Source of the DNA: an uncultured Clostridia bacterium
GTDB taxonomy: Bacteria > Bacillota > Clostridia > TANB77 > CAG-508
DNA: 64,000 nt
Assembly (NCBI GenBank): GCA_944392105.1
Contig: CALXVM010000008.1
Coordinates: 2,148-66,147, forward strand
Reading direction: 5' to 3'
A program made the translations under genes and the position numbers. Below, piece by piece: positions 2,721-61,410 of this stretch (positions within the stretch are counted from its first letter, which is position 1; each line of letters begins with the position of its first letter). The notes beneath the pieces were generated by a model. The model worked only from the letters and a program-made list of their open reading frames with translations. It did no database searches and was not told the origin of the DNA.

Positions 2721-3596
2721 ATGAAAGAATTAATAGTCCCAGAAAAATTTAATAATAAAAAATTACAATCTTTTTTAACATATAGTTTTCCTAGCTTAAG
2801 TAATTCGCTTTTTTATAAAACCCTTCGTAAAAAAGATATTAGAATAAATGATTTAAGAATTAGCGAAAATGTTATATTGCACACTGGAGATAATGTAAAA
2901 ATATACATTTCTGATGAATTCTTATCTCCAGTCATTCAAAAGGAAATAAATGTTATATATGAGGACAGTAATATTATAATAGCAGACAAACCCGCACAAA
3001 TTGAAGTCGTCGGAAATAACAGTTTGACTACTTTATTAAAAAATCAGCTTAATTTACAATACTTAGAGCCTTGCCATAGATTGGACAGAAACACTACGGG
3101 ATTAATCTTATTTGCCAAAAATCAAGAAGCTTTAAATATTTTGTTAGATAAATTTAAAAATCACGAAATAGAAAAGCACTATCTTGCTATGGTATATGGA
3201 ATTCCTAAAGATAGAGTCAAAACATTGCAAGCATATTTATTTAAAGATAATAAAAAATCGCAAGTTTACATTTCGGAAGTGGCAAAAAAAGGATATGTCC
3301 CTATTACAACCAAATATGCAATTTTATCTACAAATAAAGGAAAAAATTATTCCGTCTTAGATGTTGAGCTGTTAACTGGCAAAACCCACCAAATACGTGC
3401 ACATTTGGCATATATCGGTTACCCTATAATAGGTGATGGAAAATACGGTAAAAACGAAATAAATAAAAAATTTGGAGTTAAAACGCAAAGACTTTGTAGT
3501 TATAAATTAAAATTTGCTTTTAAAACGGATTCTACCCTTTTAAATTACCTTAAGGGAAAAGAGTTTGTTTTGTCTGAAAAAAATTTTAATTATTGA
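2721..3596 (+). CDS. RluA-family pseudouridine synthase (S4-like N-terminus + catalytic domain)
   Basis: Catalytic motif HRLDRNTTGLILFAKN and C-terminal KTHQIRAHLAYIGYPIIGDGKYG. ATG 2721 (RBS AGAGAGG) is preferred over the track start 2658, which lies inside the upstream islet and hairpin. Confidence 0.9.
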   Translation: MKELIVPEKFNNKKLQSFLTYSFPSLSNSLFYKTLRKKDIRINDLRISENVILHTGDNVKIYISDEFLSPVIQKEINVIYEDSNIIIADKPAQIEVVGNNSLTTLLKNQLNLQYLEPCHRLDRNTTGLILFAKNQEALNILLDKFKNHEIEKHYLAMVYGIPKDRVKTLQAYLFKDNKKSQVYISEVAKKGYVPITTKYAILSTNKGKNYSVLDVELLTGKTHQIRAHLAYIGYPIIGDGKYGKNEINKKFGVKTQRLCSYKLKFAFKTDSTLLNYLKGKEFVLSEKNFNY

Positions 3597-3820
3597 ATTT
3601 TATTTAGTAATTTTAGATTATTTTACCAAATTAGATTAATATTCCAAAATAGTTCAATCTTAAAAATTAATATAAAAAAAATAGTTTAATATAAAAGATA
3701 TCCAATAGCCTGGCAATTAATTAAAACTGCTATACTATTGGATATTTTTTATCATACAATTATTTTTCTTTTTTTGTAATTCTTTGTTTTATTTTTCGAT
3801 TTTATTTAATTTAAGAGTAG

Positions 3821-3960
3821 ATCGTATCTTAATTTCTTAAATCAGGAAATTAAGATCTGGTCCCAATTTCTCAAATTAGGAATTTCAGATCTGGTCCCAA
3901 TTTCTTCTGACCTGTCCCCAATTTTCCAAATCGGGAAGTTGGGACCTGTCCCTAATTTCC
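3821..3960 (-). repeat. Family-A palindromic repeat array (about 4 units of GAYCTGKTCCCNAATTTC with short self-complementary spacers)
   Basis: Units AGATCTGGTCCCAATTTC (3855, 3887), TGACCTGTCCCCAATTTT (3909) and GGACCTGTCCCTAATTTC (3941). Inverted repeat ATCTTAATTTC/GAAATTAAGAT at 3827-3856. The terminal unit supplies GGA AAT TAG, the end of ftsH. Confidence 0.85.
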
Positions 3961-5748
3961 AATTAGCTGTTGGAATTCTTCTGCAGATATAATTTCTTTT
4001 TCTATTAATGCTTGTGCTACTTTGTCTAGCTTATCCATGTTGTCTAATATAAGTTTTTGTGCTTTTACGTATGCATTATCTATCATTATTTTTACTTCTG
4101 CGCCAACTGCATCGCCGAATTTTTCTCCAAATAGTTGTAGCTCGTATGGGTCTTTTTCTGTGTCTATATAAATTGGTCCTAAGTCATCACTCATGCCATA
4201 TTTTACTATCATGTCTTTTGCTATTTGTGTGGCAACTTCTATGTCATTGCTTGCACCAGTTGATATATCGTTTAATGCAATTTTTTCTGCAGCACGTCCG
4301 CCTAATAAAGAGATAAGTTTTTCTTCCATTTCTGTTTTAGATATATAATACTTATCTTCGTTTGTTTTATACATTGTGTATCCGCCTGCTACACCTCTTG
4401 GAATTATAGAAACTTCCTTAATATCTTTTTGTGTTTCTAGTTGACTACTAACTATTGCATGTCCTGCTTCGTGATATGCAGTTAATTTTTTGTCTTTTTC
4501 TGAAACAACTCTACTATGTTTTTCTACTCCTATAGTTACTTTCTTTGTTGCATCTTCTATATCTTTATTAGTTATAGCGTCATGTTTATTTATTGTAGCA
4601 ATAATTGCAGCTTCATTTAAAATATTTGCAAGTTCTGCTCCAGAAAATCCAGCTGTATCTTCTGCAATATTTCTTAAGTCAACGTCGTCTGCCAATTTCT
4701 TATCTTTGGCATGTATTTTTAGTATTGCTTCTCTTCCATTTAAGTCTGGTAGTGCAATATTTATTTGTCTGTCAAATCTACCAGGTCTAAGTAAAGCTTT
4801 ATCTAGCATTTCTGGTCTATTTGTTGCTGCTAACACTATAATGGTTTCTTCTGTATCAAATCCATCCATCTCTACTAATAACTGATTTAATGTTTGATTA
4901 TTTTCAGACTCTGCTCCACTACCACTTGTTCTTCTAGAACCTACTGCATCTATTTCGTCAATAAATACTATACATGGAGCTATTTTTTTAGCTTTTTCGA
5001 ATAATTTTCTTACCCTAGAAGCTCCAAGTCCTGCGAACATTTCTATAAATTCTGAACCACTCATAGAAATAAAAGGTACATTTGCTTCTCCTGCAATTGC
5101 TTTAGCAATTAAGGTTTTACCTGTTCCAGGTTTTCCGCAAAGAAGTACTCCTCTTGGAATTTTAGCTCCCATTTCATAAAACTTATCTGGATTTTTTAAG
5201 AAATCTACAATTTCTATCATTTCTTGTTTTTCTTCGTCTAATCCTGCAACATCATCAAAAGTTATTTTTGATTTTGTAGTTTCTGCATCATATACCTTGC
5301 TCTTATCTCCCAACCCTTGCAACTTAAATAGCATAACAAATAGTATTACTAGAAGTATTGTTGGCAATAGTGTAAACAAATTACTAAATATAGTTACAAA
5401 TAAATTAGGCTTTTTTTGATTAAGCTCTATATTGTTTCCATCTTCTACTTTGCTCTGAATTAGCTCAACAAATGCTTGAGTATTTGGAACAATACATGAC
5501 CTTTCGTCTGTCTCGTCTTTTAATTTAACTTTAACAGTTGTGCTACCTGTTGTCATTTCTACTTTTTCTACATTACCATTGCCAATTTCTCTAATAAGCT
5601 CTGTATATGCAATTTCGGTGTTGTCATCTTTTTTATTAGTTGTTACAACATATATTGTTAATGCAACTGCGACAATTACAAGCACTATTGCAGCTATTAA
5701 GAAATACATATTCTTCTTTTTATTATTTTTCTTTTCTTCTTCCTTCAT
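3952..5748 (-). CDS. ftsH: ATP-dependent zinc metalloprotease FtsH
   Basis: Two N-terminal TM segments, AAA+ Walker A GKPGTGKT, Walker B IVFIDEID, and zinc site HEAGHA. Confidence 0.95.
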   Translation of the reverse strand: MKEEEKKNNKKKNMYFLIAAIVLVIVAVALTIYVVTTNKKDDNTEIAYTELIREIGNGNVEKVEMTTGSTTVKVKLKDETDERSCIVPNTQAFVELIQSKVEDGNNIELNQKKPNLFVTIFSNLFTLLPTILLVILFVMLFKLQGLGDKSKVYDAETTKSKITFDDVAGLDEEKQEMIEIVDFLKNPDKFYEMGAKIPRGVLLCGKPGTGKTLIAKAIAGEANVPFISMSGSEFIEMFAGLGASRVRKLFEKAKKIAPCIVFIDEIDAVGSRRTSGSGAESENNQTLNQLLVEMDGFDTEETIIVLAATNRPEMLDKALLRPGRFDRQINIALPDLNGREAILKIHAKDKKLADDVDLRNIAEDTAGFSGAELANILNEAAIIATINKHDAITNKDIEDATKKVTIGVEKHSRVVSEKDKKLTAYHEAGHAIVSSQLETQKDIKEVSIIPRGVAGGYTMYKTNEDKYYISKTEMEEKLISLLGGRAAEKIALNDISTGASNDIEVATQIAKDMIVKYGMSDDLGPIYIDTEKDPYELQLFGEKFGDAVGAEVKIMIDNAYVKAQKLILDNMDKLDKVAQALIEKEIISAEEFQQLIGN

Positions 5749-8736: not shown

Positions 8737-11505
8737 TTAAGCATTGTTAACAACTGTATTTGTATTTTCTCCTCCAGATGGAGTTTCTGTATTACCTCCA
8801 GTTGAAGGCTCAGACGGAGTAGTTGTATTTGTGTTTCCTCCTCCTGATGGTTTTTCTGTATTCGTATCTTCTCCTCCTGTTGAAGGTGTTTCTGGTGTTG
8901 TCGTCTTTTTATTTACAGTTATAGTGATTGTAGAATTTTTAGCTACAACTTCGTTTGCCTTTACACTTTGTGCTAAAACTATTCCTTCTTGTTTTGTACT
9001 ATCTGATTTATATGTTACTTTAATTGTTAGTCCTGCTAAAGAAGTTCTAGCTGCTGCCTCTGTTTTTCCTACTACATTTGGCACTTTTACCATATTTGAA
9101 GCTGTATGCTCATCGCATTTTTCTGTTGGTCTTGTATATGTTTTGCCATTAATTGGTTTCCAAGCTGGATTTACTTCTTTTTCTGGTGTTACAGCAAATG
9201 CTTTTTCTTCTACTTCTGGACAATACTCTGTAGCAAGTTTTCCTGAAGCTTTACATACTTTTACTTTATCATGTCCATCACAGTATCCTGGAACAGTTCC
9301 TGCTTTAAATATTTCTGTATATGTTTGTGTACAGCTCTTTGTAGCAAGTTTTCCTGATTGTAAACAAATTCTTGCACTAGTTATTCCAGATGGTTCTTCA
9401 AATTCAGCATCATCTAAATCTGAATGTATATCTTTCATAATTCTTGCCCAAATTTGTTGTGCTGCATCTGCATTTCCAGATCTAACTTCCTCTGGTGTAT
9501 CATATCCAACCCATGTAGCTGCTGAATAATATGGGGTAAATCCACATAACCATTTATCTTTTTTGCTATCTGTTGTACCAGTTTTTGCTGCTACATCAAT
9601 TCCACTTATTTTACACATATACGCTGTACCACTAGAGCCAGTTACAACATCTTTTAATATATCTGCTGTAATATATGCTGTAGTTTCTTCCATTACTCTT
9701 CTTGTTTCTTGTGTAGATTCTAATACTACATTTCCATCTCTATCTTCTACTTTTGTATAGAATGTTGGCTCAGTATATTCTCCACCATTTGCTATAGTCT
9801 CATATGCAGCTGCCATTTCTAATGGTGTTGCACCTTCACTCATTCCTCCTATTGCTAATGCTAAGTTATTATCTAAATCTGGATTAACATGTTCAAGTCC
9901 CATGTCTTGTAAATACTCTATAGCTGTAGATGGTCCTACATTAGATAAAATTTTCATATTTACAACATTTGAAGATACTTCTATAGCTTTTCTTACTGTT
10001 GTTAATCCTCTATAATTAGCTACATTTTTAGGTGAATATCCTCCACCAAAATCTGACCTAGTATCGTCATAAACGGTTGCAGCTGTTATTACTCCTTCTT
10101 CTAGTCCTGGAATAACATTTGCTAAAGGTTTTATTGCAGAACCAGTTTGTCTTGGAGACTGTGCCCTGTTTAATCCTGTTGCATTAACATCTGTTCCTAA
10201 ACCTCCCATACAGCCTACAACATAACCTGTCTTATTATCTATTATTATCATTCCCGATTGTGTATGTTCTTTATTTTCTTTTGGTCCACCAGTTGTTCTT
10301 GCATAATATATATATTCATCTTTTACATACTCTTCTTCCATTCTATCTTGAATTTCTGTAACTTGAGTTGTATATATTCTATATCCACCTGTTGACAACA
10401 TATTTCTTGCCATTTTATAATCTACATCTTTTGCTTCTGCCAAGTCCTGTGCAACTTCGTCAATTGCTGCAGCTGTGTGGTATGTCATTTGAGTATTATT
10501 GTCAAACTCACCCTCTTTAAATTTTAAACCTGCATCTACTTCTGCTACAGCCTCGTTATATAGTCTTTCTGCCTCTTCTGGGTCATTACTTATTCTATTT
10601 TGATCTTTCATCTCTGCTAAAACAGTTTTTGTTCTAGTTTTAATTGCCTCTGTAACTTCTTCGTCACCTTCATACCAGAAAGGATTGTAACTATTTGGAG
10701 AGTGGTTTATACCTGCCATAAATGCAGCTTCTGCTAAACTTAAATCTTTTGCAGACTTAGAGAAATAGTACTTAGCTCCATTTTCCACCCCACATATTGT
10801 AGTTCCGCCTACATAAATTATATTCAAATATTGTTCTAATATTTGTTGTTTTGAAAGCATTTTTTCAATTTGATATGCTCTAGACATTTCTCTTATTTTT
10901 CTTGTAACACCTGCCAAACCTGTGTCATCTTGATCATTCATTAAGTTCTTAGCAAGCTGTTGAGTTATAGTACTTCCACCATAAGAAGAATGTCCTCCTC
11001 TTAAAACATATTGTATTGTTGCACTTAAAGTTCTTGATATATCTATTCCTGAATGCTCATAAAATCTTTTATCCTCTATTGCAACATATGCATTTGGTAA
11101 ATATGGTCCCATTTCTGAGTATGTAATAATTTTTCTGTTTACATCTCCTGAAGATAAGTCAAATATTTGCTTACCGTCCATATCGTAAACAATTGAATTG
11201 TTATGTCCTATTACTAAGTCTTCTTTAGTTAGTTTTAATTTATCACTAAAGAATACACCCGCAAAAATTCCTACACCAATTAAGCATAGTAAAATAAAGA
11301 TTATAAAAATTATAATCAACGCTTTTTTTAATTTAGGATGCTTACTTTTTTTCTTTCCTTTTTTATCTTTCTTATTTATTTCACTGTCTTTTACATAATC
11401 ATCTTTTGTTTTAGGTTTTGTTTTCTTCTTTTTCTTTGGATTTTCTCTTACGACTTTATACATCTTAGTTTTTCCATCGTCTTTGCTTCTTTTTCCAGTA
11501 CTCAT
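8737..11505 (-). CDS. Class A penicillin-binding protein (glycosyltransferase + transpeptidase) with PASTA-like module and T/P/S/G/N-rich tail
   Basis: GT51 motifs EDKRFYEHSGID and RKIREM. Transpeptidase motifs SAIKP, SSN and KTGT. An N-terminal basic tail plus TM segment. C-terminal VPNVVGKTEAAARTSLAGL... (PASTA-like). Confidence 0.9.
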   Translation of the reverse strand: MSTGKRSKDDGKTKMYKVVRENPKKKKKTKPKTKDDYVKDSEINKKDKKGKKKSKHPKLKKALIIIFIIFILLCLIGVGIFAGVFFSDKLKLTKEDLVIGHNNSIVYDMDGKQIFDLSSGDVNRKIITYSEMGPYLPNAYVAIEDKRFYEHSGIDISRTLSATIQYVLRGGHSSYGGSTITQQLAKNLMNDQDDTGLAGVTRKIREMSRAYQIEKMLSKQQILEQYLNIIYVGGTTICGVENGAKYYFSKSAKDLSLAEAAFMAGINHSPNSYNPFWYEGDEEVTEAIKTRTKTVLAEMKDQNRISNDPEEAERLYNEAVAEVDAGLKFKEGEFDNNTQMTYHTAAAIDEVAQDLAEAKDVDYKMARNMLSTGGYRIYTTQVTEIQDRMEEEYVKDEYIYYARTTGGPKENKEHTQSGMIIIDNKTGYVVGCMGGLGTDVNATGLNRAQSPRQTGSAIKPLANVIPGLEEGVITAATVYDDTRSDFGGGYSPKNVANYRGLTTVRKAIEVSSNVVNMKILSNVGPSTAIEYLQDMGLEHVNPDLDNNLALAIGGMSEGATPLEMAAAYETIANGGEYTEPTFYTKVEDRDGNVVLESTQETRRVMEETTAYITADILKDVVTGSSGTAYMCKISGIDVAAKTGTTDSKKDKWLCGFTPYYSAATWVGYDTPEEVRSGNADAAQQIWARIMKDIHSDLDDAEFEEPSGITSARICLQSGKLATKSCTQTYTEIFKAGTVPGYCDGHDKVKVCKASGKLATEYCPEVEEKAFAVTPEKEVNPAWKPINGKTYTRPTEKCDEHTASNMVKVPNVVGKTEAAARTSLAGLTIKVTYKSDSTKQEGIVLAQSVKANEVVAKNSTITITVNKKTTTPETPSTGGEDTNTEKPSGGGNTNTTTPSEPSTGGNTETPSGGENTNTVVNNA

Positions 11506-11642: not shown

Positions 11643-11695
11643 ATAAGAAAATCTCCTTATGATATTTTTATTTTATCATAAGGAGATTTTCTTAT
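11643..11695 (-). terminator. Perfect 22-bp stem hairpin (bidirectional terminator candidate)
   Basis: ATAAGAAAATCTCCTTATGATA (11643-11664) pairs perfectly with TATCATAAGGAGATTTTCTTAT (11674-11695). The loop is 9 nt and the flanks are T-rich. Confidence 0.7.
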
Positions 11696-11700
11696 ATTTA

Positions 11701-11847
11701 TATTTCACACCGCAAAAATAATCGAGCTTCTATTTTAGATTTTAAGTCATTTTGTCGTGCTTTCGAATGATTTTTTATTATTCTTACTGTTTTAGGCGGT
11801 ATTTATACCTATTCTGTGCGTTTTAAGGCCATATTTTGCGGTCGCAT
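11701..11847 (-). other. Conserved 3' UTR element downstream of variable-protein gene (copy 1 of 3)
   Basis: Alignable by eye with 25581-25721 and 53892-54033. Shared blocks on the coding strand are CAAAATATGNCCTYTAAAACGCACA, AATAGG..AAATACCNCCTAAA, AAATCATTCGAAAG and GACAAAA. It lies between the stop codon and the terminator hairpin. Confidence 0.55.
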
Positions 11848-13185
11848 CTAAAGTGCGACCAAGACCGGACGGAACGAAACATTGCTGCTGCTGCCACCGT
11901 TGTTGTCGAAAGCGAACACGCCAGCACGCGAGCCATCGTAGTAATAGCCTCCGCGGCGGAAGAAAGGACTGCTCGTGAAAGGAAAGTAAGAGCAATCACC
12001 GTACCACGATCCGTTGCTTGTGTTGCCGTTCGCGCTCGTCTCATACACTGCGTCTCCATACTTACTTGCATTTTGATTATAGTTATTTGTGTTATTATCC
12101 GTACTTGCTTTTGTATACACATTCTTCGTCTTTGCGTCTCCATTTACTAAGCTTGAGCCATAGCTTGTTAAATTACCATTTCCGTTATTTACGTATCCTG
12201 CTACATATTCCCAGGCTCCTCCACTCATATCATACACTCCATACACATTTCCTGTTGTACTTTGTGCTCCATTATTTACATATGTGTTTCCACTTCCTCC
12301 TCCTGTGTAATATGAGCTATTACTGTTTATTGTTACTTCTTCTGTTTGTTTTCCATATTTACTTTTACTTAGGTATGCTACTGCTCCCCATTCATCATTT
12401 TTCATCATATGACTATTTAATGTTTTATTATAATTTAAACAATTTGTATATGCCGTTCCTATATAAATATATCTCCAGCTTGCTACTCCTGGTTTTACCT
12501 GTAATGTCTTTGTTGTTACGTTATCTCCGCTACTGCTATTACTATTTCCTTGTACACTACTTGCTTCAAATTTTGCTACCCATAGCCCACTTACTGTTTG
12601 ACCATAATTAAATGCTGGATGGATATTCCAATTTCCTGCTCCACTTGCATTATTAAAGCTTGTTCTTCCTGTACTTGTTTCGTTCGTTAAACCTTTCATG
12701 AACTCTACTTCTATTGTTCCTGTGCTACTACTATGATATCCACTTGTTATACTATATGCATATCTTGGTATCCATACCCACATGCTTCCATCACTTGTTT
12801 TTGCATTTGCCCATTTCTTTGCTGAATAATCATACCAATCTGGGTCGCTTCCTGTTGTCTCTACCCAATCTCCTGCTCCGCCATTTGCTGTTTCGTCCCA
12901 TTTTATAGGTGTCATTCCTTCCCCTAAATCTGGCGTGTTCACTCCTTTTTCTTCATTATAACTTCCATCGCTTGGTAACGTTGGCTCCTCTGGCGTGCTT
13001 CCTCCTATTGTATTATTCATAATACTTGCTAAATCATTATATAATTGGTTTAACTCGTCTTGCTCTTGTTCTACTGCTTCCTTTGTTTTATTTGCTGCCT
13101 CTTGTGCCTTTTTTATTATTCCATTATCACTAAATATTGTACTTATTGTTACACTTGCTAATATTAATAATACTACAATCGTCAC
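11848..13185 (-). CDS. Pilin-like N-terminus / C-type-lectin-fold (FGE-sulfatase-like) surface protein with hypervariable C-terminus, paralog 1; 5' end apparently frameshifted
   Basis: Paralog of 25722-27179 and 54034-55446 (WVWIPRYAYSITSGYHSS, IHPAFNYGQTVSG, HMMKNDEWGAVAYLSKSKYGK, GVYDMSGGAWEYV, SFRPVLV). The GITLIALVVTIVVLLILA segment is in this frame but has no ATG. The expected leader (ATG 13300, RBS GGGAGG, MRVKATKK...) is in another frame, which implies a 1-nt shift near 13210-13225. Confidence 0.7.
   Translation of the reverse strand: MTIVVLLILASVTISTIFSDNGIIKKAQEAANKTKEAVEQEQDELNQLYNDLASIMNNTIGGSTPEEPTLPSDGSYNEEKGVNTPDLGEGMTPIKWDETANGGAGDWVETTGSDPDWYDYSAKKWANAKTSDGSMWVWIPRYAYSITSGYHSSSTGTIEVEFMKGLTNETSTGRTSFNNASGAGNWNIHPAFNYGQTVSGLWVAKFEASSVQGNSNSSSGDNVTTKTLQVKPGVASWRYIYIGTAYTNCLNYNKTLNSHMMKNDEWGAVAYLSKSKYGKQTEEVTINSNSSYYTGGGSGNTYVNNGAQSTTGNVYGVYDMSGGAWEYVAGYVNNGNGNLTSYGSSLVNGDAKTKNVYTKASTDNNTNNYNQNASKYGDAVYETSANGNTSNGSWYGDCSYFPFTSSPFFRRGGYYYDGSRAGVFAFDNNGGSSSNVSFRPVLVAL
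11851..12055 (-). other. G+C-rich hypervariable patch (DGR-type variable region candidate, VR1)
   Basis: Hand count gives 66/120 G+C at 11881-12000, against 17/60 at 12301-12360 in the same gene. Scaffold codons are identical to VR2 and VR4. Variable codons are NNC/NNT. The hairpin GGTCGCA-N7-TGCGACC (11840-11860) encloses the stop codon. Confidence 0.65.
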
Positions 13186-13663
13186 TACTAATGCTATTAG
13201 CGTTATCCCGCTTGTTTTCTCTTTGCTTCTTTACCTTTAGCAAATTTTTTATTTCTAGCTCATCAATCTTGTTTAATTTTTTTGTTGCTTTTACTCTCAT
13301 TTTATTTTCCTCCCATTTACTTCTTTTGTTATTATTGCCAACTTTTCTAGTATTAATCATCTTTATTACATATAATTTAATATCTTTTAATATTGCTGGC
13401 CATCTTTTATTAATGTTCTTAATAAAAAATATGGAATTATTTATTCTTTTTTCTTTTATCGTATAGAATAAATATATCATTTCACTTCTTGATAGTCAAT
13501 ATTAATTATTCCTATTTTTATTACATTTTCTTTACGTTTTTATTACAATTATCTTATGACAAAATCATAGTAAAAACTTTCAATTTACCTTTTAAAGCGT
13601 AAAAATAGGCAGGTTCAAAAGACCCTGCCTATAAATTAAGTTAACACCCCTTTTACGTTTATT

Positions 13664-18912: not shown

Positions 18913-19052
18913 GTAATTCCACCTTTTTTGTTTTTTGATAATTATATCACAAATTTGTTACAATTTTGTTAAAATATTGAAAAAATGTTTTTTATATGTT
19001 AGAATTATATAGATTTAAAATGGTTAAACTATTAGAAAAGGAGAGATTTCAA

Positions 19053-20492
19053 GTGAAAAAAATAAATAAAATTTTATTTACAATTATTTTAATAATTGTA
19101 TTAGTAACAATTTCTAGCTATACATTTGCTGTAAACATTACTTCTACAAACGAAAGCGTTTCAAACACAACGCAAACAACTGGTGGAAGTTCAAAAATTA
19201 CAGTATTCGAGTTAGTTAGCGATAAATCTTGCACAATGAATTTAGGAGACAAAGGAAGATTTGAGAAAAAAGTAGCAGATTTTGATGCAACAGAAAAAAG
19301 TATTACTTTACAATTAAGCTTAGTAAATACATCTGCTCCATCTGAGGTTACAAAACCATCTGAATTATTTTTAGTAATAGATAATTCAAACAGTATGGTT
19401 GAAAACTCAACAGAAGCAGGAATTACAAGAAAAGAAGCCGTTATAGAAGCTGCTAGTAAATTATCAGAAACATTACTTAAAGCATATCCAGATTTAAAAA
19501 TTGGTGTGGTAAGTTTCTCTAGTAAAGACGGCGAAGAAGGAACTTTAGCAGATGCAAAATTGGAGCAAGGATTAACAAGTGATGAATCTCAAGTAAAAAC
19601 AGCTCTTGCAAATATAGAAACAAGTAATGGTGCAAGAACCAACATAGAAGCAGGACTTACAATAGCAGAACAAAATTATACTGATGCAGACAATACAAAA
19701 GTTTTAGTATTATTAAGTGACGGAGTTCCTAATAACGACGCACACGGAAACTTCTCTACTTATTCAGGAGATGTAGCTACTAATACTAAAGCAAAATTAC
19801 AAGAATTAGACAATAACGGAATTAGCATATTAGGTGCCATGATTGGTCTTAATGGAGACGACATCGAGCCAACTACACAAAGAACATATCAAGCTTTAGC
19901 AGAAGAAATATTCGGTACTCCAGAAGAACCTACAGTTGGAAAATTCTACTATATACAAGACCAAGAAATTGAAGAAACACTTAATAATACTATAGTAGAT
20001 ATACTTATTCCAACACCAGACACAAAATTACAAAATGTAGTAATTAAAGACTACTTCCCACAAACTATTATAGACAATTTCAATTTTGAATATGTTGCAT
20101 CACCTAATATTGGAGATGTTAGTACAGAAATAGACAAATCAGATAACAGCATTACTTGGACAATAGAAGTATTAAACGAAGACGAAGTTGCTACATTAAG
20201 CTACAAACTTACATTAAAAGATGACTTTAATAAAGAAATTCTTGATGAAATATTACCTACAAATGAAAAAGTAGACATCACTTATGGAGAAGACGGTCAC
20301 GTTGAATCAGACGACTCTCCTACAGTTAGAGTAAAAGAAGAAGTTCCTCCACAAAAGGAAGACAACACTACTGCACAAGACCCTATTCCACAAACAGGAA
20401 ATAATAGTTTTATAGCATTAGCAGTAATCGTAAGTATAGCTATAGTTTTAGCAATAGTAGGAATTCAAATAAAGAAACATAATAATAAATAA
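19053..20492 (+). CDS. Cell-wall-anchored von Willebrand factor A domain protein (IPQTG sorting signal)
   Basis: MIDAS DNSNSM and LLSDGVPN. The C-terminus is PIPQTGNN + hydrophobic helix + KKHNNK, a sortase signal. GTG 19053 (RBS AAAGGAGAG) is preferred to the track start 18996. Confidence 0.8.
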   Translation: MKKINKILFTIILIIVLVTISSYTFAVNITSTNESVSNTTQTTGGSSKITVFELVSDKSCTMNLGDKGRFEKKVADFDATEKSITLQLSLVNTSAPSEVTKPSELFLVIDNSNSMVENSTEAGITRKEAVIEAASKLSETLLKAYPDLKIGVVSFSSKDGEEGTLADAKLEQGLTSDESQVKTALANIETSNGARTNIEAGLTIAEQNYTDADNTKVLVLLSDGVPNNDAHGNFSTYSGDVATNTKAKLQELDNNGISILGAMIGLNGDDIEPTTQRTYQALAEEIFGTPEEPTVGKFYYIQDQEIEETLNNTIVDILIPTPDTKLQNVVIKDYFPQTIIDNFNFEYVASPNIGDVSTEIDKSDNSITWTIEVLNEDEVATLSYKLTLKDDFNKEILDEILPTNEKVDITYGEDGHVESDDSPTVRVKEEVPPQKEDNTTAQDPIPQTGNNSFIALAVIVSIAIVLAIVGIQIKKHNNK

Positions 20493-20784: not shown

Positions 20785-20839
20785 GCTGACCTGTCCCCGA
20801 TTTCCCAAATCGGGAAATTGGGACCTGTCCCTAATTTCC
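20785..20839 (-). repeat. Family-A palindromic repeat, one full ~55-bp unit
   Basis: GCTGACCTGTCCCCGATTTCCCAAATCGGGAAATTGGGACCTGTCCCTAATTTCC. Its last 9 nt encode G-N-stop of the M23 gene. Confidence 0.85.
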
Positions 20840-22105
20840 AGGTGGGTTAACATATTTTAGTGGGTCTTGCGTGTAGCCGTTTATTCTTACTTCGAAGTGG
20901 CAGTGTGGACCTGTAGAATTTCCTGTTGATCCTACTTCCATTATTAAGTCGCCTTGTTTTACTTGTTTGCCTTTTTCTGTTAGTATTTTTTGTCCGTGAG
21001 CATACAATGTTGTAATTCCGTTTCCATGGTCTATCATAACGCAGTTTCCATAGCTTCCCAATTCTCCTGCATAAGATACTACGCCATCTAGTGCTGCGAC
21101 TATAGGTGCTCCATAGTCTGCTCCTCCTATGTCTAAACCTTGATGTAGTTTTACTACACCTTGTATTGGGTGCTCTCTTATTCCATAATTAGATGTTATT
21201 ACGGTTCCAGACACCGCTACAGGCCAAATTAATGCTCCTCCTGTGTATTGTATATCTATGCTTGGAGTTGTAGAAATTTGCATTATTAATGTTTCTATTC
21301 TTAATTGCTCATTTTTGTATGCTGTTATTTCGTCATTAAGCTTTTTCTCGTTTTCTTGTAGGCTGTTAACATATCCTTGTTGCAAGCTTCTTGTATTACT
21401 AAGTACAAGTGACATCTGTTCTGCTTTTGCCTTTATTACTTTTGTTTGAGCATTTTCGTTCTCTATTTTTTGTTTATATTGTTCTATCTCTTCTTTTTTC
21501 TGAGCAACTTCATTCATAAGGTTAATATCTACTTCTGTTATTTGTCTCATAAAATAAATAGATGACAAAAACTCTGGTAAACTTTTAGACCTTAATAATA
21601 CATCTAAATATGATACCTCTCCTGCTTTAGATATTGCTACAAGTCTTTTTCTTACTGTGTCGTCCTTTTGCTCATAGTCTTTTGTTGTCTCTTCTAATTC
21701 TATTGTCATTGATTTTATAGATTCTTCATAACTGTTTACTTTGTTATTTAGTTCGTTAATTTGATTTTCATAATCTCTTATAGAATCGTCCAATTTTTGA
21801 ATTTGAAGTAGAGTATTTGACATTTCGTTTTGTACATATTCAAGTTGTAAACTAGATTGATTTATTTTTTCTTCGACTTCTTCTTTTTGTTGGTTTAAAC
21901 TGTCTATAGTATTTGTAGCTTGATTTTGCTCTGTGTTTGAGCCTTCGTTATTCTGTGTAGTTGCATTTGTAGTATTTGAATTTGTGCTTGTCATAGAAGT
22001 ACCTGCATTTTCGCTTGCTATGTCTATACTACTTGCTATAACTGTAACAGAATAACTAATTATTAAAATTAAAGCAAGGAGAGTGCAAAGTATTTTGTTT
22101 TTCAA
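20831..22105 (-). CDS. Coiled-coil M23 family metallopeptidase (EnvC/PcsB-like architecture)
   Basis: Signal peptide, long coiled coil, and an M23 domain with HQGLDIG and GPHCHFEVR. It lies downstream of ftsEX. Confidence 0.85.
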   Translation of the reverse strand: MKNKILCTLLALILIISYSVTVIASSIDIASENAGTSMTSTNSNTTNATTQNNEGSNTEQNQATNTIDSLNQQKEEVEEKINQSSLQLEYVQNEMSNTLLQIQKLDDSIRDYENQINELNNKVNSYEESIKSMTIELEETTKDYEQKDDTVRKRLVAISKAGEVSYLDVLLRSKSLPEFLSSIYFMRQITEVDINLMNEVAQKKEEIEQYKQKIENENAQTKVIKAKAEQMSLVLSNTRSLQQGYVNSLQENEKKLNDEITAYKNEQLRIETLIMQISTTPSIDIQYTGGALIWPVAVSGTVITSNYGIREHPIQGVVKLHQGLDIGGADYGAPIVAALDGVVSYAGELGSYGNCVMIDHGNGITTLYAHGQKILTEKGKQVKQGDLIMEVGSTGNSTGPHCHFEVRINGYTQDPLKYVNPPGN

Positions 22106-25450: not shown

Positions 25451-25580
25451 ATCAATTTTTATATTAGGTAAACTTTTTATTCTTTTCCTCTGCCATCTCT
25501 ATTTTCCCCCAATCTATATCATCTATTATTATAGGTTACTATATAGTTTACCGTACATCTATATGAGATATTTTGGTATT

Positions 25581-25721
25581 GCACCCGTGAAATACCCGAC
25601 CTCGTATTTTGCGTTTTGAGGCATTTTGTCCGACTTTCGAATGATTTATCATAGGTTGTGCTATTTTAGGTGGTATTTACGCCTATTGTGTGCGTTTTAG
25701 AGGCATATTTTGTAGTCACAT
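25581..25721 (-). other. Conserved 3' UTR element (copy 2 of 3)
   Basis: Near-identical over most positions to 53892-54033 and more loosely to 11701-11847. Each copy has two CTCYAAAACGCA boxes, and candidate stems show compensatory changes (CCTC..GAGG, and CTT..AAG in copy 1). Confidence 0.55.
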
Positions 25722-27179
25722 CTAATTTGCGACCAAGACCGGACGGAACGAAGTGTTGCTGCTAGCACCGCCATCGTTGCCGTTGAAATAGAACACGCCA
25801 GCACTCGAGCCATCGTTGTAATAGCCTCCGCGGATGAAGAAAGGAGCGCTCGTGCCAGGAAAGCCAGAGTAATCGCCGTACCACGATCCGTTGCTTGAGT
25901 TACCGTTTGAGCTCGTCTCGTAAACCGCGTCTCCATACACTCCTGCATTTGCACTGTAATTACTACTGTTATTATCTGAACTTCCTTTTGCATACACGTT
26001 CTTCGTCTTTGAGTCACTACTATTTACTAAACTTGCTCCATAGTTTGTTAAGCTTGCATTTCCATTATTTACATATGCTGCTACATATTCCCATGCTCCT
26101 CCGCTCATATCATATACTCCATACACATTTCCCGTTGTACTTGCTTTTACTCCTTGTGTACTTGTATAATCTGTCGTTGTTCCTGTATTTTGAGATGCAC
26201 TTGCACTATTTCCTGCTGATCCTGTTATGAAACTGCTACTATTATTTATCCATACTTCTTCTGTTTCTTTTCCATATTTACTTTTACTTAAATATGCTAC
26301 TGCTCCCCACTCATCATTTTTCATCATATGGCTATTTAGTGTGCTATTATAACTTTTACATTTATTATATATATCATTTACACTTATACCTCTCCAGCTC
26401 TGTACTCCTGGTTGTACCTTTATTACTCCACTACTTCCTGCACTACTTGAGCTTGCATTACTTTGGCTTGCTTCAAATTTTGCTACCCATATTCCACTTA
26501 CTGTTTGCCCATAGTTAAATGCTGGATGGATATTCCAGTTTCCTTGTCCACTTGCATTATTAAAGCTTGTTCTTCCACTTGTTGTTTCGTTTCTTGTTCC
26601 TTTCATAAATTCTACTGCTATTGTTCCTGTACTGCTACTATGATATCCACTTGTTATACTATATGCAAACCTTGGTATCCATACCCACATACTTCCATCT
26701 GCTGTTTTTGCGTTTGCCCATTCCTTATTTTCATAATCATACCATTCTGGGTTGCTTCCGTCTGTTTCTACCCAATCTCCTGCTCCCTCATTTGCTGTTT
26801 CGTCCCATTTTATTGGCGTCATTCCTTCTCCTAAATTTGGTGTGTTTACTCCTTTGTCTTCACTAAAACTTCCATCACTTGGCAATTCTGGCTCTTCTGG
26901 TGTTGTTCCGCTTCCGCCTATTCCATTTAGCATATTTTCCATATAGTCTGCTATTTCATTCATTTGTGTTTGTTCATTTATTGTTGCTTCTTTTGTTTTG
27001 TTTGCCGCTTCTTGTGCCTTTGCTATTATTCCGTTTTCACTAAATACTAAGCTTATTGTTATTCCTGCTAATATCAATAATACTACAATTGTTACAACTA
27101 GTGCTATTAGTGTTATACCTTGTGTTTTTTTACAATATGTTTTGCTACTATCTTTTTGCAATAAAAATGTTTTCTCCAT
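25722..27179 (-). CDS. Pilin-like N-terminus / C-type-lectin-fold (FGE-sulfatase-like) surface protein with hypervariable C-terminus, paralog 2
   Basis: ATG 27179 with RBS GGGAGG is preferred over the track start 27242. Leader MEKTFLLQKDSSKTYCKKTQG, then ITLIALVVTIVVLLILAGITISLVF (class III signal-like). C-terminal GVYDMSGGAWEYV ... PFFIRGGYYNDGSSAGVFYF ... SFRPVLVAN. Confidence 0.8.
   Translation of the reverse strand: MEKTFLLQKDSSKTYCKKTQGITLIALVVTIVVLLILAGITISLVFSENGIIAKAQEAANKTKEATINEQTQMNEIADYMENMLNGIGGSGTTPEEPELPSDGSFSEDKGVNTPNLGEGMTPIKWDETANEGAGDWVETDGSNPEWYDYENKEWANAKTADGSMWVWIPRFAYSITSGYHSSSTGTIAVEFMKGTRNETTSGRTSFNNASGQGNWNIHPAFNYGQTVSGIWVAKFEASQSNASSSSAGSSGVIKVQPGVQSWRGISVNDIYNKCKSYNSTLNSHMMKNDEWGAVAYLSKSKYGKETEEVWINNSSSFITGSAGNSASASQNTGTTTDYTSTQGVKASTTGNVYGVYDMSGGAWEYVAAYVNNGNASLTNYGASLVNSSDSKTKNVYAKGSSDNNSSNYSANAGVYGDAVYETSSNGNSSNGSWYGDYSGFPGTSAPFFIRGGYYNDGSSAGVFYFNGNDGGASSNTSFRPVLVAN
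25725..25935 (-). other. G+C-rich hypervariable patch (DGR-type variable region candidate, VR2)
   Basis: See the finding at 25722-25935. Stop-spanning hairpin at 25714-25734 (7 pairs in the mRNA sense, including 2 G-U). Confidence 0.65.
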
Positions 27180-27289
27180 GTTATTCCTCCCACTTTTGTT
27201 TCTTTTGTTATTGTTTCCCATTTTTTTATTTTTAATCATCATTTTACTTATAGGAACAATCTTTTCTTTTTATTTCAATTTGCGATATT

Positions 27290-37060: not shown

Positions 37061-37115
37061 GCTGACCTGTCCCCAATTTCCCGATTTGGGAAGTTGGGAC
37101 CTGTCCCTAATTTCC
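37061..37115 (-). repeat. Family-A palindromic repeat, one unit, central loop inverted relative to other copies
   Basis: GCTGACCTGTCCCCAATTTCCCGATTTGGGAAGTTGGGACCTGTCCCTAATTTCC. The loop is GATTT here and AAATC at 3929, 20807 and 63156. The last 9 nt encode G-N-stop of the ATPase. Confidence 0.85.
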
Positions 37116-48014: not shown

Positions 48015-48181
48015 TTTTCTTGCACCTCCTTTCGCCTTTTCTTCTTTTATTTGCTTATTTTTCTCTTCTTCCATTTTTTACTTTCTCCCCCCTCTCTTTT
48101 TTGGCACGCAAAAATGACAGGCTATTTTTTATATCATTAATAAAGGCTTTTTCGCCCTTTCTTATTTCTCTAAAACTATTC

Positions 48182-53840: not shown

Positions 53841-53881
53841 AAATAACAGTACCAAAATATAAAATATTTGTACTGTTATTT
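53841..53881 (-). terminator. 12-bp stem hairpin ending the variable-gene 4 transcript
   Basis: AAATAACAGTAC (53841-53852) pairs with GTACTGTTATTT (53870-53881). Confidence 0.55.
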
Positions 53882-53891
53882 TATTTATATT

Positions 53892-54033
53892 CTACACCGT
53901 CAAAATACTCGACCTCTTATTTTGCGTTTTGAGACGTTTTGTCCGACTTTCGAATGATTTACATAGGTTGTGCCGATTTAGGCGGTATTTGTGCCTATTA
54001 TGTGCGTTTTAGAGGCATATTTTGTGGTCACAT
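53892..54033 (-). other. Conserved 3' UTR element (copy 3 of 3)
   Basis: Aligns with 25581-25721 along its whole length. Confidence 0.55.
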
Positions 54034-55446
54034 CTAAATTGTGGCTAAGACCGGACGGAACGAGACGCTGCTGTTGCTAACGCCATAGTAACACTCGAAA
54101 TAGAACACGCCAGCACTAGAACCACCGCCGAAATAGGCTCCGCGATAGAAGAAAGGAAGGCTCGTGTGAGGAAAGCTAGAGGAATCGCTGTACCACGATG
54201 TTGCTCCGCTACCGCTTGTGCTCGTTTCGTACACCGCGTCTCCATACACTCCTGCGTTTGCGTTATAATTATTTGTTTGATTTTCTGAGCTTGCTTTACT
54301 ATACACGTTCTTCGTCTTTGGATCTCCATTTACTAAGCTTTTTCCATAGCTTGTTAAATTGCCATTTCCGTTATCTACATACGCTGCTACATATTCCCAT
54401 GCTCCTCCGCTCATATCGTATACTCCCCAGACGTTTCCGGTTGTACTTTGTGCTCCATTATTTACATATGTGTTTCCACTTCCTCCTCCGGTATAATATG
54501 AACTATTGCTATTTATTGTTACTTCATCGTTTTTTCCATATTTACTTCTACTTAAATATGCTACTGCTCCCCACTCGTCATTTTTCATCATATGACTATT
54601 TAATGTCTTATTATAATTTAGACAGTTTGTATATATGCTATCTACTGTTATACTTCTCCAACTCTGTACTCCTGGCTGTACCATTATTTTTCCATTACTA
54701 TTACTTGCTTCAAATTTTGCTACCCATATTCCACTTACTGGTTGTCCATAGTTAAATGCTGGGTGTATTACATATCCATTTGGAAATTGTGTATAATTTG
54801 TTGTTGTACTATCATTATATTCTACTATTGTTTGTCCTGTTGCTGTTTCGTTACTCGTTCCTTTCATAAATTCTATGCTTATTTCTGTTGCTGTACTTGT
54901 ATGGTATCCTGTACTTGGAATATTATATGCATATCTTGGTATCCACACCCACATACTTCCATCTGTAGTTTTTGCATTTGCCCATTTCTTTGCTGAATAA
55001 TCATACCAATCTGAGTCACTTCCGTCCGTTTCTACCCAATCTCCTGCTCCGCCATTTGCTGTTTCGTCCCATTTTATTGCTGTCATTCCTTCTCCTAAGT
55101 TTGGCGTATTTACTCCTTTTGACTCGCTATAACTCCCATCGCTTGGTAATTCTGGCTCAGGTTCCGGTGTTGTACTTCCTCCACCTATTCCATTTAACAT
55201 ATTTTCCATTGCAGCTGTTACATCATTCATTTGTGTTTGTTCATTTATTACTGCTTCTTTTGTTTTATCTGCTGCCTCTCTTGCTTTTGCTATTATTCCA
55301 TTTTCACTAAACACTAAGCTTATTGTTATTCCTGCTAGTATTAAAAGTACTACAATCGTTACAACTAGTGCTATTAGTGTTATACCTTGTGTTTTTTTAC
55401 AATATGCTTTTCTATTATCTTTTTGTAATAAAAACGTTTTCTCCAT
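54034..55446 (-). CDS. Pilin-like N-terminus / C-type-lectin-fold (FGE-sulfatase-like) surface protein with hypervariable C-terminus, paralog 4
   Basis: ATG 55446 with RBS GGGAGG. Leader MEKTFLLQKDNRKAYCKKTQG, then ITLIALVVTIVVLLILAGITISLVF. C-terminal GVYDMSGGAWEYV ... PFFYRGAYFGGGSSAGVFYF ... SFRPVLATI. Confidence 0.8.
   Translation of the reverse strand: MEKTFLLQKDNRKAYCKKTQGITLIALVVTIVVLLILAGITISLVFSENGIIAKAREAADKTKEAVINEQTQMNDVTAAMENMLNGIGGGSTTPEPEPELPSDGSYSESKGVNTPNLGEGMTAIKWDETANGGAGDWVETDGSDSDWYDYSAKKWANAKTTDGSMWVWIPRYAYNIPSTGYHTSTATEISIEFMKGTSNETATGQTIVEYNDSTTTNYTQFPNGYVIHPAFNYGQPVSGIWVAKFEASNSNGKIMVQPGVQSWRSITVDSIYTNCLNYNKTLNSHMMKNDEWGAVAYLSRSKYGKNDEVTINSNSSYYTGGGSGNTYVNNGAQSTTGNVWGVYDMSGGAWEYVAAYVDNGNGNLTSYGKSLVNGDPKTKNVYSKASSENQTNNYNANAGVYGDAVYETSTSGSGATSWYSDSSSFPHTSLPFFYRGAYFGGGSSAGVFYFECYYGVSNSSVSFRPVLATI
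54037..54245 (-). other. G+C-rich hypervariable patch (DGR-type variable region candidate, VR4)
   Basis: Same scaffold codons as VR1 and VR2, with variable NNY codons. A weaker stop-spanning hairpin at 54026-46. Confidence 0.6.
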
Positions 55447-55608
55447 GTTATTCCTCCCACTTTTGTTTCTTTTGTTATTGTTTCCCATTTTTTTATTTTT
55501 AATCATTATTTTACTTTTTGTTCTGCATTACATTTATATATTAACATTTCAAGTTAGTATAATGATTATTAACTTTAATATAGAAACAATTTTATCTCAT
55601 TTTGCAAT

Positions 55609-59912: not shown

Positions 59913-59993
59913 GGAAATTGAGGACAGGTCAAAGAAATTAGGACCAGATCCAAATTTCTTATTTTAAGAAATTTAGATCTGGTCCCAATTTCC
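59913..59993. repeat. Family-A repeat cluster with units in both orientations
   Basis: GGAAATTGAGGACAGGTC and GAAATTAGGACCAGATC are inverted units. Then AAATTTCTTATTTTAAGAAATTT and AGATCTGGTCCCAATTTCC (a forward unit). It ends 2 nt before the deoD stop. Confidence 0.8.
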
Positions 59994-59994
59994 A

Positions 59995-60714: not shown

Positions 60715-60804
60715 TCTCCTTCATTGGTTTTATTAAGATACTTTATTAGTATTAAACAGCGTAATTAATAAAATGTGAATCGTACTTTTTCCAACTTTAA
60801 AAAT

Positions 60805-60825
60805 GCTGACCTGTCCCCAATTTCC
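60805..60825 (-). repeat. Family-A repeat, solitary half unit
   Basis: GCTGACCTGTCCCCAATTTCC, just downstream of greA. Confidence 0.7.
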
Positions 60826-60830
60826 AAATT

Positions 60831-61310: not shown

Positions 61311-61410
61311 AAGTCTTTCCTCCTTTTTGTCAATATGTTTTTAATACAAAAAATAAATTTGAACGACTTCAAATTTATCCCATATATATTAATCCATTTT
61401 AATAAATTTG

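What the first reader, a model, noticed from the sequence alone, without database searches (positions are those of the whole stretch)
11840..12055. Second copy of the hypervariable patch, with a perfect hairpin enclosing the stop codon
- The hand-counted G+C is 66/120 at 11881-12000, against 17/60 at 12301-12360 in the same gene.
- The patch ends with TCG TTC CGT CCG GTC TTG GTC GCA CTT TAG. The stop codon sits in the 7-nt loop of a perfect 7-bp hairpin, GGTCGCA-CTTTAGA-TGCGACC (11840-11860).
- The paralogs keep the stem through compensatory or wobble changes: CGCA/TGCG here, CGCA/TGTG (with G-U) at 25714-25734, CACA/TGTG at 54026-54046.
- DGR variable regions are known to be followed by a G+C-rich initiation-of-homing segment and a hairpin or cruciform that promotes retrohoming. 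The position fits.
Basis: partly seen in the sequence, partly recalled or inferred. Interest (0 to 1): 0.75.

Follow-up and report, generated by a model that had tools for sequence, protein, structure and literature searches.

The report
DGR target end with boundary hairpin
The G+C-rich patch is the variable region of a diversity-generating retroelement target gene, and its stop-codon hairpin marks where template homology ends: a known kind of system with an unusual hairpin layout.

Summary

The patch (core 11851-11996, minus strand) is a diversity-generating retroelement (DGR) variable region. It ends one of three paralogous genes for a pilin-like protein with a lectin-fold domain.

The window holds no template repeat (TR) and no reverse transcriptase (RT). 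Related gut metagenome contigs hold non-coding TRs followed by the Rfam RT-14 RNA, with a DGR-type RT next to some of them.
- Against one of these TRs, this patch differs at 15 of 35 adenines and at 1 of 107 other bases.
- The TR shares the A-free segment TCGTTCCGTCCGGTCTT, the hairpin's 5' arm and CTT, then diverges. It lacks the 3' arm.

Three caveats apply.
- Across 15 distinct target ends the stem is conserved, but covariation is no better than shuffles.
- The hairpins of the two other paralogs are weak.
- The geometry differs from the characterised type: the loop is 6-8 nt rather than a 4-nt GRNA loop, and the stem overlaps the end of TR homology.

It is a new member of a known kind. Whether the element is still active in this genome is open.

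The parts
11848..13185 (-). Target gene, paralog 1. It encodes a pilin-like N-terminal hydrophobic segment plus an FGE-sulfatase/C-type-lectin-like C-terminal domain. The 5' end is disrupted in this assembly.
   Evidence: ORF. Paralog alignment: 73% amino-acid identity to the two other copies. A family profile hits PDB 5VF4, the Thermus aquaticus DGR variable protein. No in-frame start codon precedes G|ITLIALVV.
11851..11996 (-). Variable region core: the stretch homologous to the template repeats found in related contigs.
   Evidence: Against the L014 TR, 15/35 TR adenines are changed and 1/107 other bases, with one 3-nt gap. Against the L014 cis target, all 20 differences lie in columns where at least one TR has A, and 0 of 100 lie in columns where no TR has A. 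Coordinates.
11997..12060 (-). G+C-rich, moderately variable extension upstream of the TR homology. It is not covered by any TR found.
   Evidence: Alignments. It is 65/65 identical to the L014 target, while the rest of the gene is 91.8% identical. Unexplained.
11861..11877 (-). A-free G+C-rich segment TCGTTCCGTCCGGTCTT. It is shared by the variable regions and the TRs, and is the IMH-like core and probable zone of 3' cDNA integration.
   Evidence: Identical in four of the five TRs and in 12 of the 16 distinct target ends collected; the other TR has one substitution. Downstream of it, paralogs 2 and 3 differ from the TR at non-A bases.
11840..11860 (-). Perfect 7-bp hairpin GGTCGCA / CTTTAGA / TGCGACC with the stop codon (11848-11850) in the loop. 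The 5' arm and CTT are also in the TR. The 3' arm is found only in targets.
   Evidence: (-7.8 kcal/mol). Megablast homology between the cis targets (L011, L014, L015) and the window stops exactly at 11840.
11690..11839 (-). Non-coding stretch of about 150 nt downstream of the hairpin. It is conserved among the three paralogs and in other remote targets. Function unknown.
   Evidence: Repeat family D4. Alignments. No terminator-like site and no Rfam match.
25722..27242 (-). Target gene, paralog 2. Variable region core is 25725-25873. The weak hairpin at 25714-25734 has two G-T wobbles.
   Evidence: Pfam FGE-sulfatase E = 4.2e-5 and N_methyl E = 5e-3. Best TR match: 18/40 adenines changed against 8/105 other bases. 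Hairpin -2.7 kcal/mol.
54034..55506 (-). Target gene, paralog 3. Variable region core is 54037-54185. The degenerate hairpin at 54026-54046 has four contiguous pairs.
   Evidence: 23/40 adenines changed against 9/105 other bases. Hairpin -1.6 kcal/mol.

Best explanation
Window 11851-11996 (minus strand) is the variable region of a remote target gene of a diversity-generating retroelement.

Shown:
- The gene's last ~146 nt match a non-coding template repeat found in related contigs.
- Differences between variable regions and TRs fall at TR adenines.
- An A-free G+C-rich segment (TCGTTCCGTCCGGTCTT) closes the mutable part.
- TR homology runs on through GGTCGCACTT and stops at the stop codon.
- Only the target then carries TGCGACC, which pairs with GGTCGCA.

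Inferred, by analogy with the Bordetella phage BPP-1 element (PMC3240598):
- An RT copies the TR RNA into cDNA and misreads adenines.
- The cDNA replaces the variable region.
- The hairpin tells target from donor and raises homing efficiency, while the integration point lies upstream in the A-free segment.
- The cDNA copy of the TR 3' end equals the hairpin's 3' arm. It could therefore invade the hairpin on the sense strand. This last step is speculation.
For: Adenine-specific variation:
- Same-cassette TR/variable-region pairs in L011 and L014 show 13/35 and 13/37 adenines changed, and 0/110 and 0/108 other bases changed.
- Window paralog 1 against the L014 TR: 15/35 against 1/107, p = 6.5e-10.
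- Paralog 1 against the L014 cis target: all 20 differences lie in columns where at least one TR has A and none at 100 other columns, while the rest of the gene is 91.8% identical.
- All 27 columns that are A in every TR vary among 13 variable regions, against 24 of 88 invariant non-A columns.
- High-entropy residues coincide with TR Asn (AAY) codons.

Retroelement parts in related contigs:
- TRs are non-coding, preceded by a terminator and a -10 box. They are followed by Rfam RT-14 RNA (L008: 49.1 bits, gathering score 48.1; L014: 46.1 bits).
- An RT with PIGNYTSQFFANIYL and YMDD lies next to the TR in L008 and L014. A bAvd gene, an RT and a TR lie together in L028.

Target protein: Pfam FGE-sulfatase; family profile hits the DGR variable protein 5VF4 at E = 9.4e-4.

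Hairpin:
- The TR lacks the 3' arm.
- The 3' arm is kept in cis targets and remote targets whose following sequences are unrelated.
- Three of the four targets with a changed IMH-like segment (L013b, L017, L034) lack this hairpin; L008cis keeps it.
- Strains with 98-99% identical flanks (window paralog 2 and L002) kept GGTCGCAAAT while their variable regions were rewritten. This places integration upstream of the arm.
Against: - No TR, RT, Avd or RT-14 RNA is in the 64-kb window. The cognate TR of this genome was not seen.
- Paralogs 2 and 3 differ from every available TR at 8-9 of 105 non-A bases, and their hairpins are weak.
- Hairpin covariation is no better than shuffles.
- L012 keeps the IMH-like segment but has lost the 3' arm.
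- In BPP-1, enlarging the 4-nt loop by 2 nt or changing GAAA to CTTT nearly abolished homing (PMC3240598). A 6-8 nt CTTTAGA-type loop is therefore not the characterised design.
- Identical target proteins recur in 19 and 14 contigs from different samples, which argues for low activity.
- Paralog 1 has a disrupted 5' end.
Confidence: 0.82

Rival explanations
1. Fossil target. The variable region and hairpin were made by a DGR that is no longer active in this genome, so they are relics with no present function.
For: - No TR or RT in the window.
- Several related RT genes look damaged: two frames in L022 and L028, a truncated copy in L025, and an internal deletion in P0257.
- Identical variable-region alleles recur across many samples.
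- Paralog 1 has a broken 5' end.
- Paralogs 2 and 3 have non-A mismatches and weak stems.
Against: - Paralog 1 has 1/107 non-A mismatches to a TR from another metagenome. Its non-A positions are identical to the L014 target, although the rest of the gene is 8% diverged. This points to rewriting after the two lineages split.
- Window paralog 2 and the same-species locus L002 differ mostly at TR-A or TR-polymorphic columns, with 98-99% identical flanks.
- The RT next to the TR in L008 and L014 is interrupted only by a group II intron, which can splice out.
Confidence: 0.25
2. The hairpin acts in the mRNA, for example on translation termination or 3'-end stability, and not as a DNA signal for retrohoming.
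For: - The stop codon always sits in the loop.
- Stems tolerate G-U-type wobbles on the sense strand only. The antisense folds are weaker for paralog 2 (-0.5 against -2.7 kcal/mol) and for the cis targets (-2.8 against -4.4).
Against: - No T-run follows the stem and no terminator-like site was found.
- The 5' arm is dictated by the TR.
- The hairpin goes together with an intact IMH-like segment.
- A fourth pilin-like paralog without a variable region (46764-48074) ends differently.
Confidence: 0.12
3. The patch is kept similar among paralogs, and varied, by ordinary gene conversion or recombination, without reverse transcription.
For: - Three paralogs share the patch and about 150 nt downstream of it.
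- Mosaic differences with insertions and deletions occur elsewhere in the gene between strains.
Against: - Recombination does not confine variation to positions that are A in a non-coding repeat.
- That repeat sits next to an RT and an RT-associated RNA.
Confidence: 0.03
4. Chance palindrome with no function.
For: Seven-base-pair stems are short, and covariation is not significant.
Against: - Only 2 such G+C-rich perfect stems occur in 64 kb, against 0.14 expected.
- The same position is occupied in 12 of the 16 distinct homologous target ends collected (15 in alignment A3 plus L035), from several species.
Confidence: 0.02

Closest known systems
Target recognition module of the Bordetella phage BPP-1 DGR: IMH plus downstream hairpin/cruciform (Guo et al. 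2011, PMC3240598)
   Same: - The variable region sits at the 3' end of the gene.
- A G+C-rich, A-free segment is shared with the TR.
- TR and variable region diverge at the extreme 3' end (IMH against IMH*).
- An inverted repeat is present at the target and absent from the TR.
- The stop codon lies close to the structure.
   Different: - The known phage examples have 7-10 bp stems and 4-nt GRNA loops, 4-34 bp downstream of the variable region.
- Here the loop is 6-8 nt (CTTTAGA, AATTAGA, CTTTAA).
- The 5' arm plus 3 loop bases lie inside the TR homology.
- Most copies carry a G-T wobble.
- In BPP-1, loops enlarged by 2 nt or changed to CTTT were nearly inactive.
DGRs with remote (trans) targets, as noted by Roux et al. 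2021 (PMC8144416)
   Same: Several target genes far from the RT share one IMH-like end. Three lie in this 64-kb window, with no TR or RT between them.
   Different: - The targets here have a pilin-like N-terminus.
- At least five TR alleles circulate in related contigs, and two TR units sit in tandem in L011 and L015.
- Orthologous loci in close strains appear to have been written from different TR alleles.
CLec-fold DGR variable proteins such as TaqVP (PDB 5VF4, PMC6328139)
   Same: - The family profile matches 5VF4 (E = 9.4e-4).
- Pfam FGE-sulfatase hit.
- Variable residues are encoded by TR AAY codons near the C-terminus, which ends in FRPV.
   Different: - Sequence similarity is marginal.
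- The AlphaFold model was unusable (mean pLDDT 34), so the fold is not confirmed here.
- The N-terminal pilin-like segment is not a feature of TaqVP, from my own knowledge.
Rfam RT-14 RNA (RF02921)
   Same: It matches the stretch just 3' of the TR in L008 (above the gathering score) and in L014 (just below it). This is the position of a DGR spacer RNA.
   Different: It is not present in the window. It belongs to the donor cassette, not to the feature under review.

Membership tests
Diversity-generating retroelement (target / variable region) | A variable region and template repeat pair whose differences are confined to TR adenines | tested here: met
   Paralog 1 against the L014 TR: 15/35 adenines changed, 1/107 other bases. 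Same-cassette pairs: 0/110 and 0/108 non-A changes. The TR comes from related metagenome contigs, not from this genome.
Diversity-generating retroelement (target / variable region) | A DGR-clade reverse transcriptase (I/LGxxxSQ motif, YxDD) encoded in the same genome | tested here: inconclusive
   None in the window. Homologs with PIGNYTSQFFANIYL and YMDD lie next to the TR in L008 and L014, and with bAvd and a TR in L028. By synteny the RT locus may lie just right of the window.
Diversity-generating retroelement (target / variable region) | An accessory Avd gene | tested here: inconclusive
   PF22296 bAvd lies upstream of the RT in L028-L033. It is frameshifted in L022. It was not seen in the window, but only 20 of its 43 ORFs of at least 150 aa were scanned against Pfam and shorter ORFs were not scanned.
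Diversity-generating retroelement (target / variable region) | An IMH: a G+C-rich, A-free end of the variable region that is shared with the TR, followed by divergence between the two | tested here: met
   TCGTTCCGTCCGGTCTT is shared. TR and variable region diverge after GGTCGCACTT.
Diversity-generating retroelement (target / variable region) | An inverted repeat at the target that is absent from the TR | tested here: met
   The 3' arm TGYGACC occurs only in targets. The TR end does not fold.
BPP-1-type hairpin/cruciform | A 7-10 bp G+C-rich stem with a 4-nt GRNA loop, 4-34 bp downstream of the variable region (PMC3240598) | tested here: not met
   The stem is 7 bp, but the loop is 6-8 nt and is not GRNA. 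The stem overlaps the last 10 nt of TR homology.
Diversity-generating retroelement (target / variable region) | The variable region lies in a C-terminal CLec/FGE-sulfatase-fold domain | tested here: inconclusive
   Pfam PF03781: 23.8 bits against a cut-off of 23.3. Family profile against 5VF4: E = 9.4e-4. Structure model failed, pLDDT 34.
Diversity-generating retroelement (target / variable region) | Retrohoming that depends on the RT, shown by experiment | not testable with these tools
   Needs a homing assay or population sequencing.
Type IV pilin-like (class III signal peptide) proteins | An N-terminal methylation motif with a hydrophobic helix | tested here: inconclusive
   PF07963 at 16.8 bits, below the cut-off of 21.2, in paralogs 2 and 3. 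The sequence G|ITLIALVVTIVVLLILAG lacks Glu at +5 (read directly). Weak profile hits to the pilin chains 7TGG and 9LAB.

The most novel reading that the evidence does not exclude
IMH and hairpin are fused into one device. The TR templates the hairpin's 5' arm, so the 5' end of the cDNA has the same sequence as the target's 3' arm. The usually wobble-weakened hairpin on the sense strand could then act as a strand-displacement gate: the cDNA opens it, and this fixes the 3' junction. That would be a mode of target recognition distinct from the BPP-1 structure with its 4-nt GRNA loop. In this clade it would serve many pilin-like surface proteins of gut Clostridia, written from several TR alleles.
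Probability: 0.15. Interest if true: 0.6.

Novelty: new member of a known kind. Interest (0 to 1): 0.4.

Why it matters
This places three hypervariable pilin-like surface proteins of a low-G+C gut bacterium under DGR control. The family is very large in gut metagenomes: more than 7,800 cluster representatives were hit.

It also gives a natural series of target ends in which the hairpin overlaps the end of TR homology and has a long loop holding the stop codon. In the one well-studied system, loop size and sequence were critical. This family is therefore a convenient test of how general the hairpin rules are, and of where cDNA integration stops.

The full-text searches of the held library listed no paper that pairs DGRs with type IV pilin-like targets. 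That library is incomplete, so this is not proof of novelty.

Tried and rejected
- Searches for a TR in the window (blastn with word size 7) and for an RT (YxDD and SQ motif scans) found none.
- An Rfam scan of the window found only three tRNAs.
- Viral contig scans with a variable-region pattern and with a TR-junction pattern found nothing.
- The ORF after the TRs in L011 is a Fic/DOC protein, not an RT. Following its homologs cost one protein search and two look-ups and led only to unrelated mobile-element contexts.
- The contexts of P0022 and P0101 showed more remote targets without a cassette.
- The AlphaFold model of paralog 2 was unusable (mean pLDDT 34), so no fold search was run.
- A single-sequence PDB search gave only E = 0.3-0.5.
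- RNAalifold on the region downstream of the hairpin proposed a long-range pairing of GTCCGGT with GTCGGAC. It is broken in paralog 1 and has no covariation, so I rejected it.
- A terminator reading of the hairpin is rejected because no T-run follows it.
- The source genome of the window could not be retrieved. The exact paralog-2 protein occurs only on a 1.7-kb contig.

Full report
**Observation.**
- The minus strand at 11840-11880 reads TCG TTC CGT CCG GTC TTG GTC GCA CTT TAG ATGCGACC.
- The hairpin GGTCGCA / CTTTAGA / TGCGACC occupies 11860-11840, with TAG (11850-11848) in the loop.
- As single-stranded DNA the hairpin folds at -7.8 kcal/mol, with 0 of 200 shuffles as good.
- G+C-rich perfect 7-bp stems are rare in this 30% G+C window: 2 observed against 0.14 in shuffles.
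- The gene (11848-13185) has two paralogs, 25722-27242 and 54034-55506, and a more distant fourth, 46764-48074.
- The three close copies share the patch and about 150 nt downstream of the stop.
- The coding strand of the patch is 14-17% A, against 43-44% in the rest of each gene.

**Context.**
- The window is chromosomal, from a low-G+C Firmicute-like gut bacterium. It encodes a class A penicillin-binding protein, YkuD, CysRS, AlaRS, a MiaB-like enzyme, GroEL, GreA and FtsH.
- The only species-representative genome hit was a human-gut MAG labelled 'uncultured Clostridium sp.'.
- The target proteins have a pilin-like N-terminal segment. The N_methyl hit is below the curated cut-off.
- Paralog 2 also has a marginal FGE-sulfatase hit, and a family profile matches PDB 5VF4 at E = 9.4e-4. 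5VF4 is cited in the paper on the Thermus aquaticus DGR variable protein.
- The family is very large in gut metagenomes, with more than 7,800 hits.

**No donor in the window.** Blastn finds only the three copies. Motif scans find no RT. Rfam finds only three tRNAs.

**Donors in related contigs.** One metagenome scan with two invariant blocks of the patch returned contigs with a target gene followed by non-coding copies of the patch. These are L011 and L015 (two tandem copies each), L014 and L008.
- These copies have AAC or AAT where the variable regions vary.
- They are preceded by a terminator and a -10 box.
- They end ...TCGTTCCGTCCGGTCTTGGTCGCACTT|CGATACAACG.
- They are followed by a stem-loop region that matches Rfam RT-14 RNA: L008 at 49.1 bits (gathering score 48.1) and L014 at 46.1 bits.
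- In L008 and L014 the 3' exon of an RT gene lies convergent to the TR. It is preceded by the 3' end of a group II intron inserted right after the YMDD codons.
- Homologs of this RT carry PIGNYTSQFFANIYL and VRYMDDF and have Pfam RVT_1 hits.
- In L028, bAvd, an RT and a TR of the same family sit together.

**Adenine specificity.** The comparison uses a core that runs from CTCTAAC to GCACTT.

| Comparison | Adenines changed | Other bases changed |
|---|---|---|
| L011 variable region vs its own TR | 13/35 | 0/110 |
| L014 variable region vs its own TR | 13/37 | 0/108 |
| Window paralog 1 vs L014 TR (p = 6.5e-10, one 3-nt gap) | 15/35 | 1/107 |
| Window paralog 2 vs best available TR | 18/40 | 8/105 |
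| Window paralog 3 vs best available TR | 23/40 | 9/105 |

- The poorer fit of paralogs 2 and 3 suggests TR alleles that were not sampled, or decay.
- Paralog 1 and the L014 cis target differ at 20 positions in the core. All 20 lie in columns where at least one TR has A, and none lies at the 100 other columns. The rest of the gene is 91.8% identical.
- All 27 columns that are A in every TR vary among 13 variable regions, against 24 of 88 constant non-A columns.
- At the protein level the high-entropy residues are those encoded by TR Asn codons.
- Window paralog 2 and the same-species locus L002 (flanks 98-99% identical) differ at TR-A columns. They also differ at columns that are polymorphic among TR alleles, as if written from different TR alleles.

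**The hairpin in this light.**
- The TR contains the 5' arm and the first three loop bases, but not the 3' arm. The TR end does not fold.
- The 3' arm (TGYGACC) is present in 12 of the 16 distinct target ends collected (15 in alignment A3 plus L035). This includes cis targets whose following sequence is unrelated to that of the remote targets.
- Megablast homology between cis targets and the window stops exactly at 11840.
- Three of the four targets with a changed IMH-like segment (L013b, L017, L034) lack this hairpin; L008cis, with two substitutions in the segment, keeps it. L017 has a different one, with a 7-bp stem and a 4-nt loop, just after its stop codon. L012 keeps the segment but has lost the arm.
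- Covariation is not demonstrated. 80.8% of cells pair, against 29-50% for slid controls, but shuffles give 79.5%. Only one stem position alternates between G-U, A-U and G-C, and always through one-sided changes.
- Wobbles make the sense-strand fold better than the antisense fold in several copies.
- Paralogs 2 and 3 differ from the TR at non-A bases within GGTCGCACTT, yet their variable regions were rewritten. So 3' integration probably occurs in or before the A-free 17-mer. This is inference.

**Comparison with known systems.** Guo et al. 2011 (PMC3240598) describe 7-10 bp G+C-rich stems with 4-nt GRNA loops, 4-34 bp downstream of variable regions.
- The structure raises homing efficiency but does not set the integration site.
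- Loops enlarged by 2 nt or changed to CTTT were nearly inactive.
- The present element shares the logic but not the geometry: the inverted repeat is in the target only, next to an IMH-like segment, but the loop is long and the stem overlaps the homology end.
- Remote targets are known but are missed by RT-centred surveys (PMC8144416).

**Verdict.**
- This is a DGR remote-target variable region with an IMH-like end and a boundary hairpin.
- It is a new member of a known kind.
- Present activity in this genome is unproven.
- By synteny with L022, L025 and L028 (GreA, an unknown gene, GH18, then a MutS_I fragment, avd, RT and TR), the donor locus may lie just beyond the right end of the window.

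Noticed in passing
window 3797-3971, 20786-20850, 37062-37126, 59919-59994, 60787-60827, 63023-63199; also L008 ~440-500 and L014 ~470-530: An intergenic repeat family (CTGACCTGTCCCCAATTTCCCAAATCGGGAAGTTGGGACCTGTCCC) with internal inverted repeats. In L008 and L014 a copy abuts the RT gene and is read as its C-terminal tail. This suggests those contigs come from close relatives of the window's organism.
   Followed up: partly
window 13100-13480 (minus strand): Paralog 1 has no in-frame start codon before the pilin-like G|ITLIALVV. The leader lies in another frame (ORF 13130-13480), with A-runs nearby. Its closest homologue found (90.7% identical), the L014 cis target, is intact. This could be a pseudogene, phase variation or an assembly error.
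   Followed up: partly
window 46764-48074 (minus strand): A fourth paralog shares the pilin-like N-terminus but has a diverged C-terminal part without the G+C-rich patch or the hairpin.
   Followed up: no
window 11997-12060; L014 target: The G+C-rich, moderately variable block extends about 65 nt upstream of every TR found. These 65 nt are 65/65 identical between paralog 1 and the L014 target, although the rest of the gene is 91.8% identical. Either a longer TR exists or the replaced tract is longer than the TR.
   Followed up: partly
window 11690-11839, 25568-25713, 53880-54025: About 150 nt of non-coding sequence downstream of the hairpin is conserved among the three paralogs and other remote targets. 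Its first ~60 nt resemble the spacer between variable region and TR in the cis targets. No Rfam match, no terminator and no supported structure.
   Followed up: partly
L011 3165-3310 and 3650-3795; L015: Two TR-plus-spacer units sit in tandem after one target. The cis variable region fits TR1 in L011 (0/110 non-A changes) and TR2 in L015. At least five TR alleles occur among the contigs.
   Followed up: partly
L014 1-97 and L008 1-40: A group II intron (Rfam Intron_gpII, 46.2 bits) ends immediately before the codons FVMLL that follow YMDD in the DGR RT. The RT gene is therefore interrupted by an intron at its catalytic motif.
   Followed up: partly
L022 ~9970-10000 and L028 ~3140-3160: Two RT genes from this RT family (69% and 55% identical to the L008 RT) share one extra C at the same place (GGT AGA C GGx). 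It splits the RT into two frames, and both halves stay open with their motifs conserved. This may be a conserved frameshift that needs recoding, or an old lesion. P0257 lacks the extra C.
   Followed up: partly
window 60831-64000; L022, L025, L028: The gene order GreA, an unknown gene, GH18, then a MutS_I fragment, bAvd, an RT and a TR is seen in related contigs. The window ends within the GH18 gene. The DGR core of this genome may therefore lie 1-3 kb to the right of the window.
   Followed up: partly
L002-L005 and L035-L040: Identical target proteins, including their variable regions, recur in 19 contigs (P0008) and 14 contigs (P0046) from different samples. At least some loci are therefore static across hosts.
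   Followed up: no
window 18996-20492 (plus strand): A VWA-domain protein with a weak GBS104-like tip-pilin Ig domain. It is the only large plus-strand gene in this stretch, and a G+C-rich hairpin lies at 20506 just after it.
   Followed up: no
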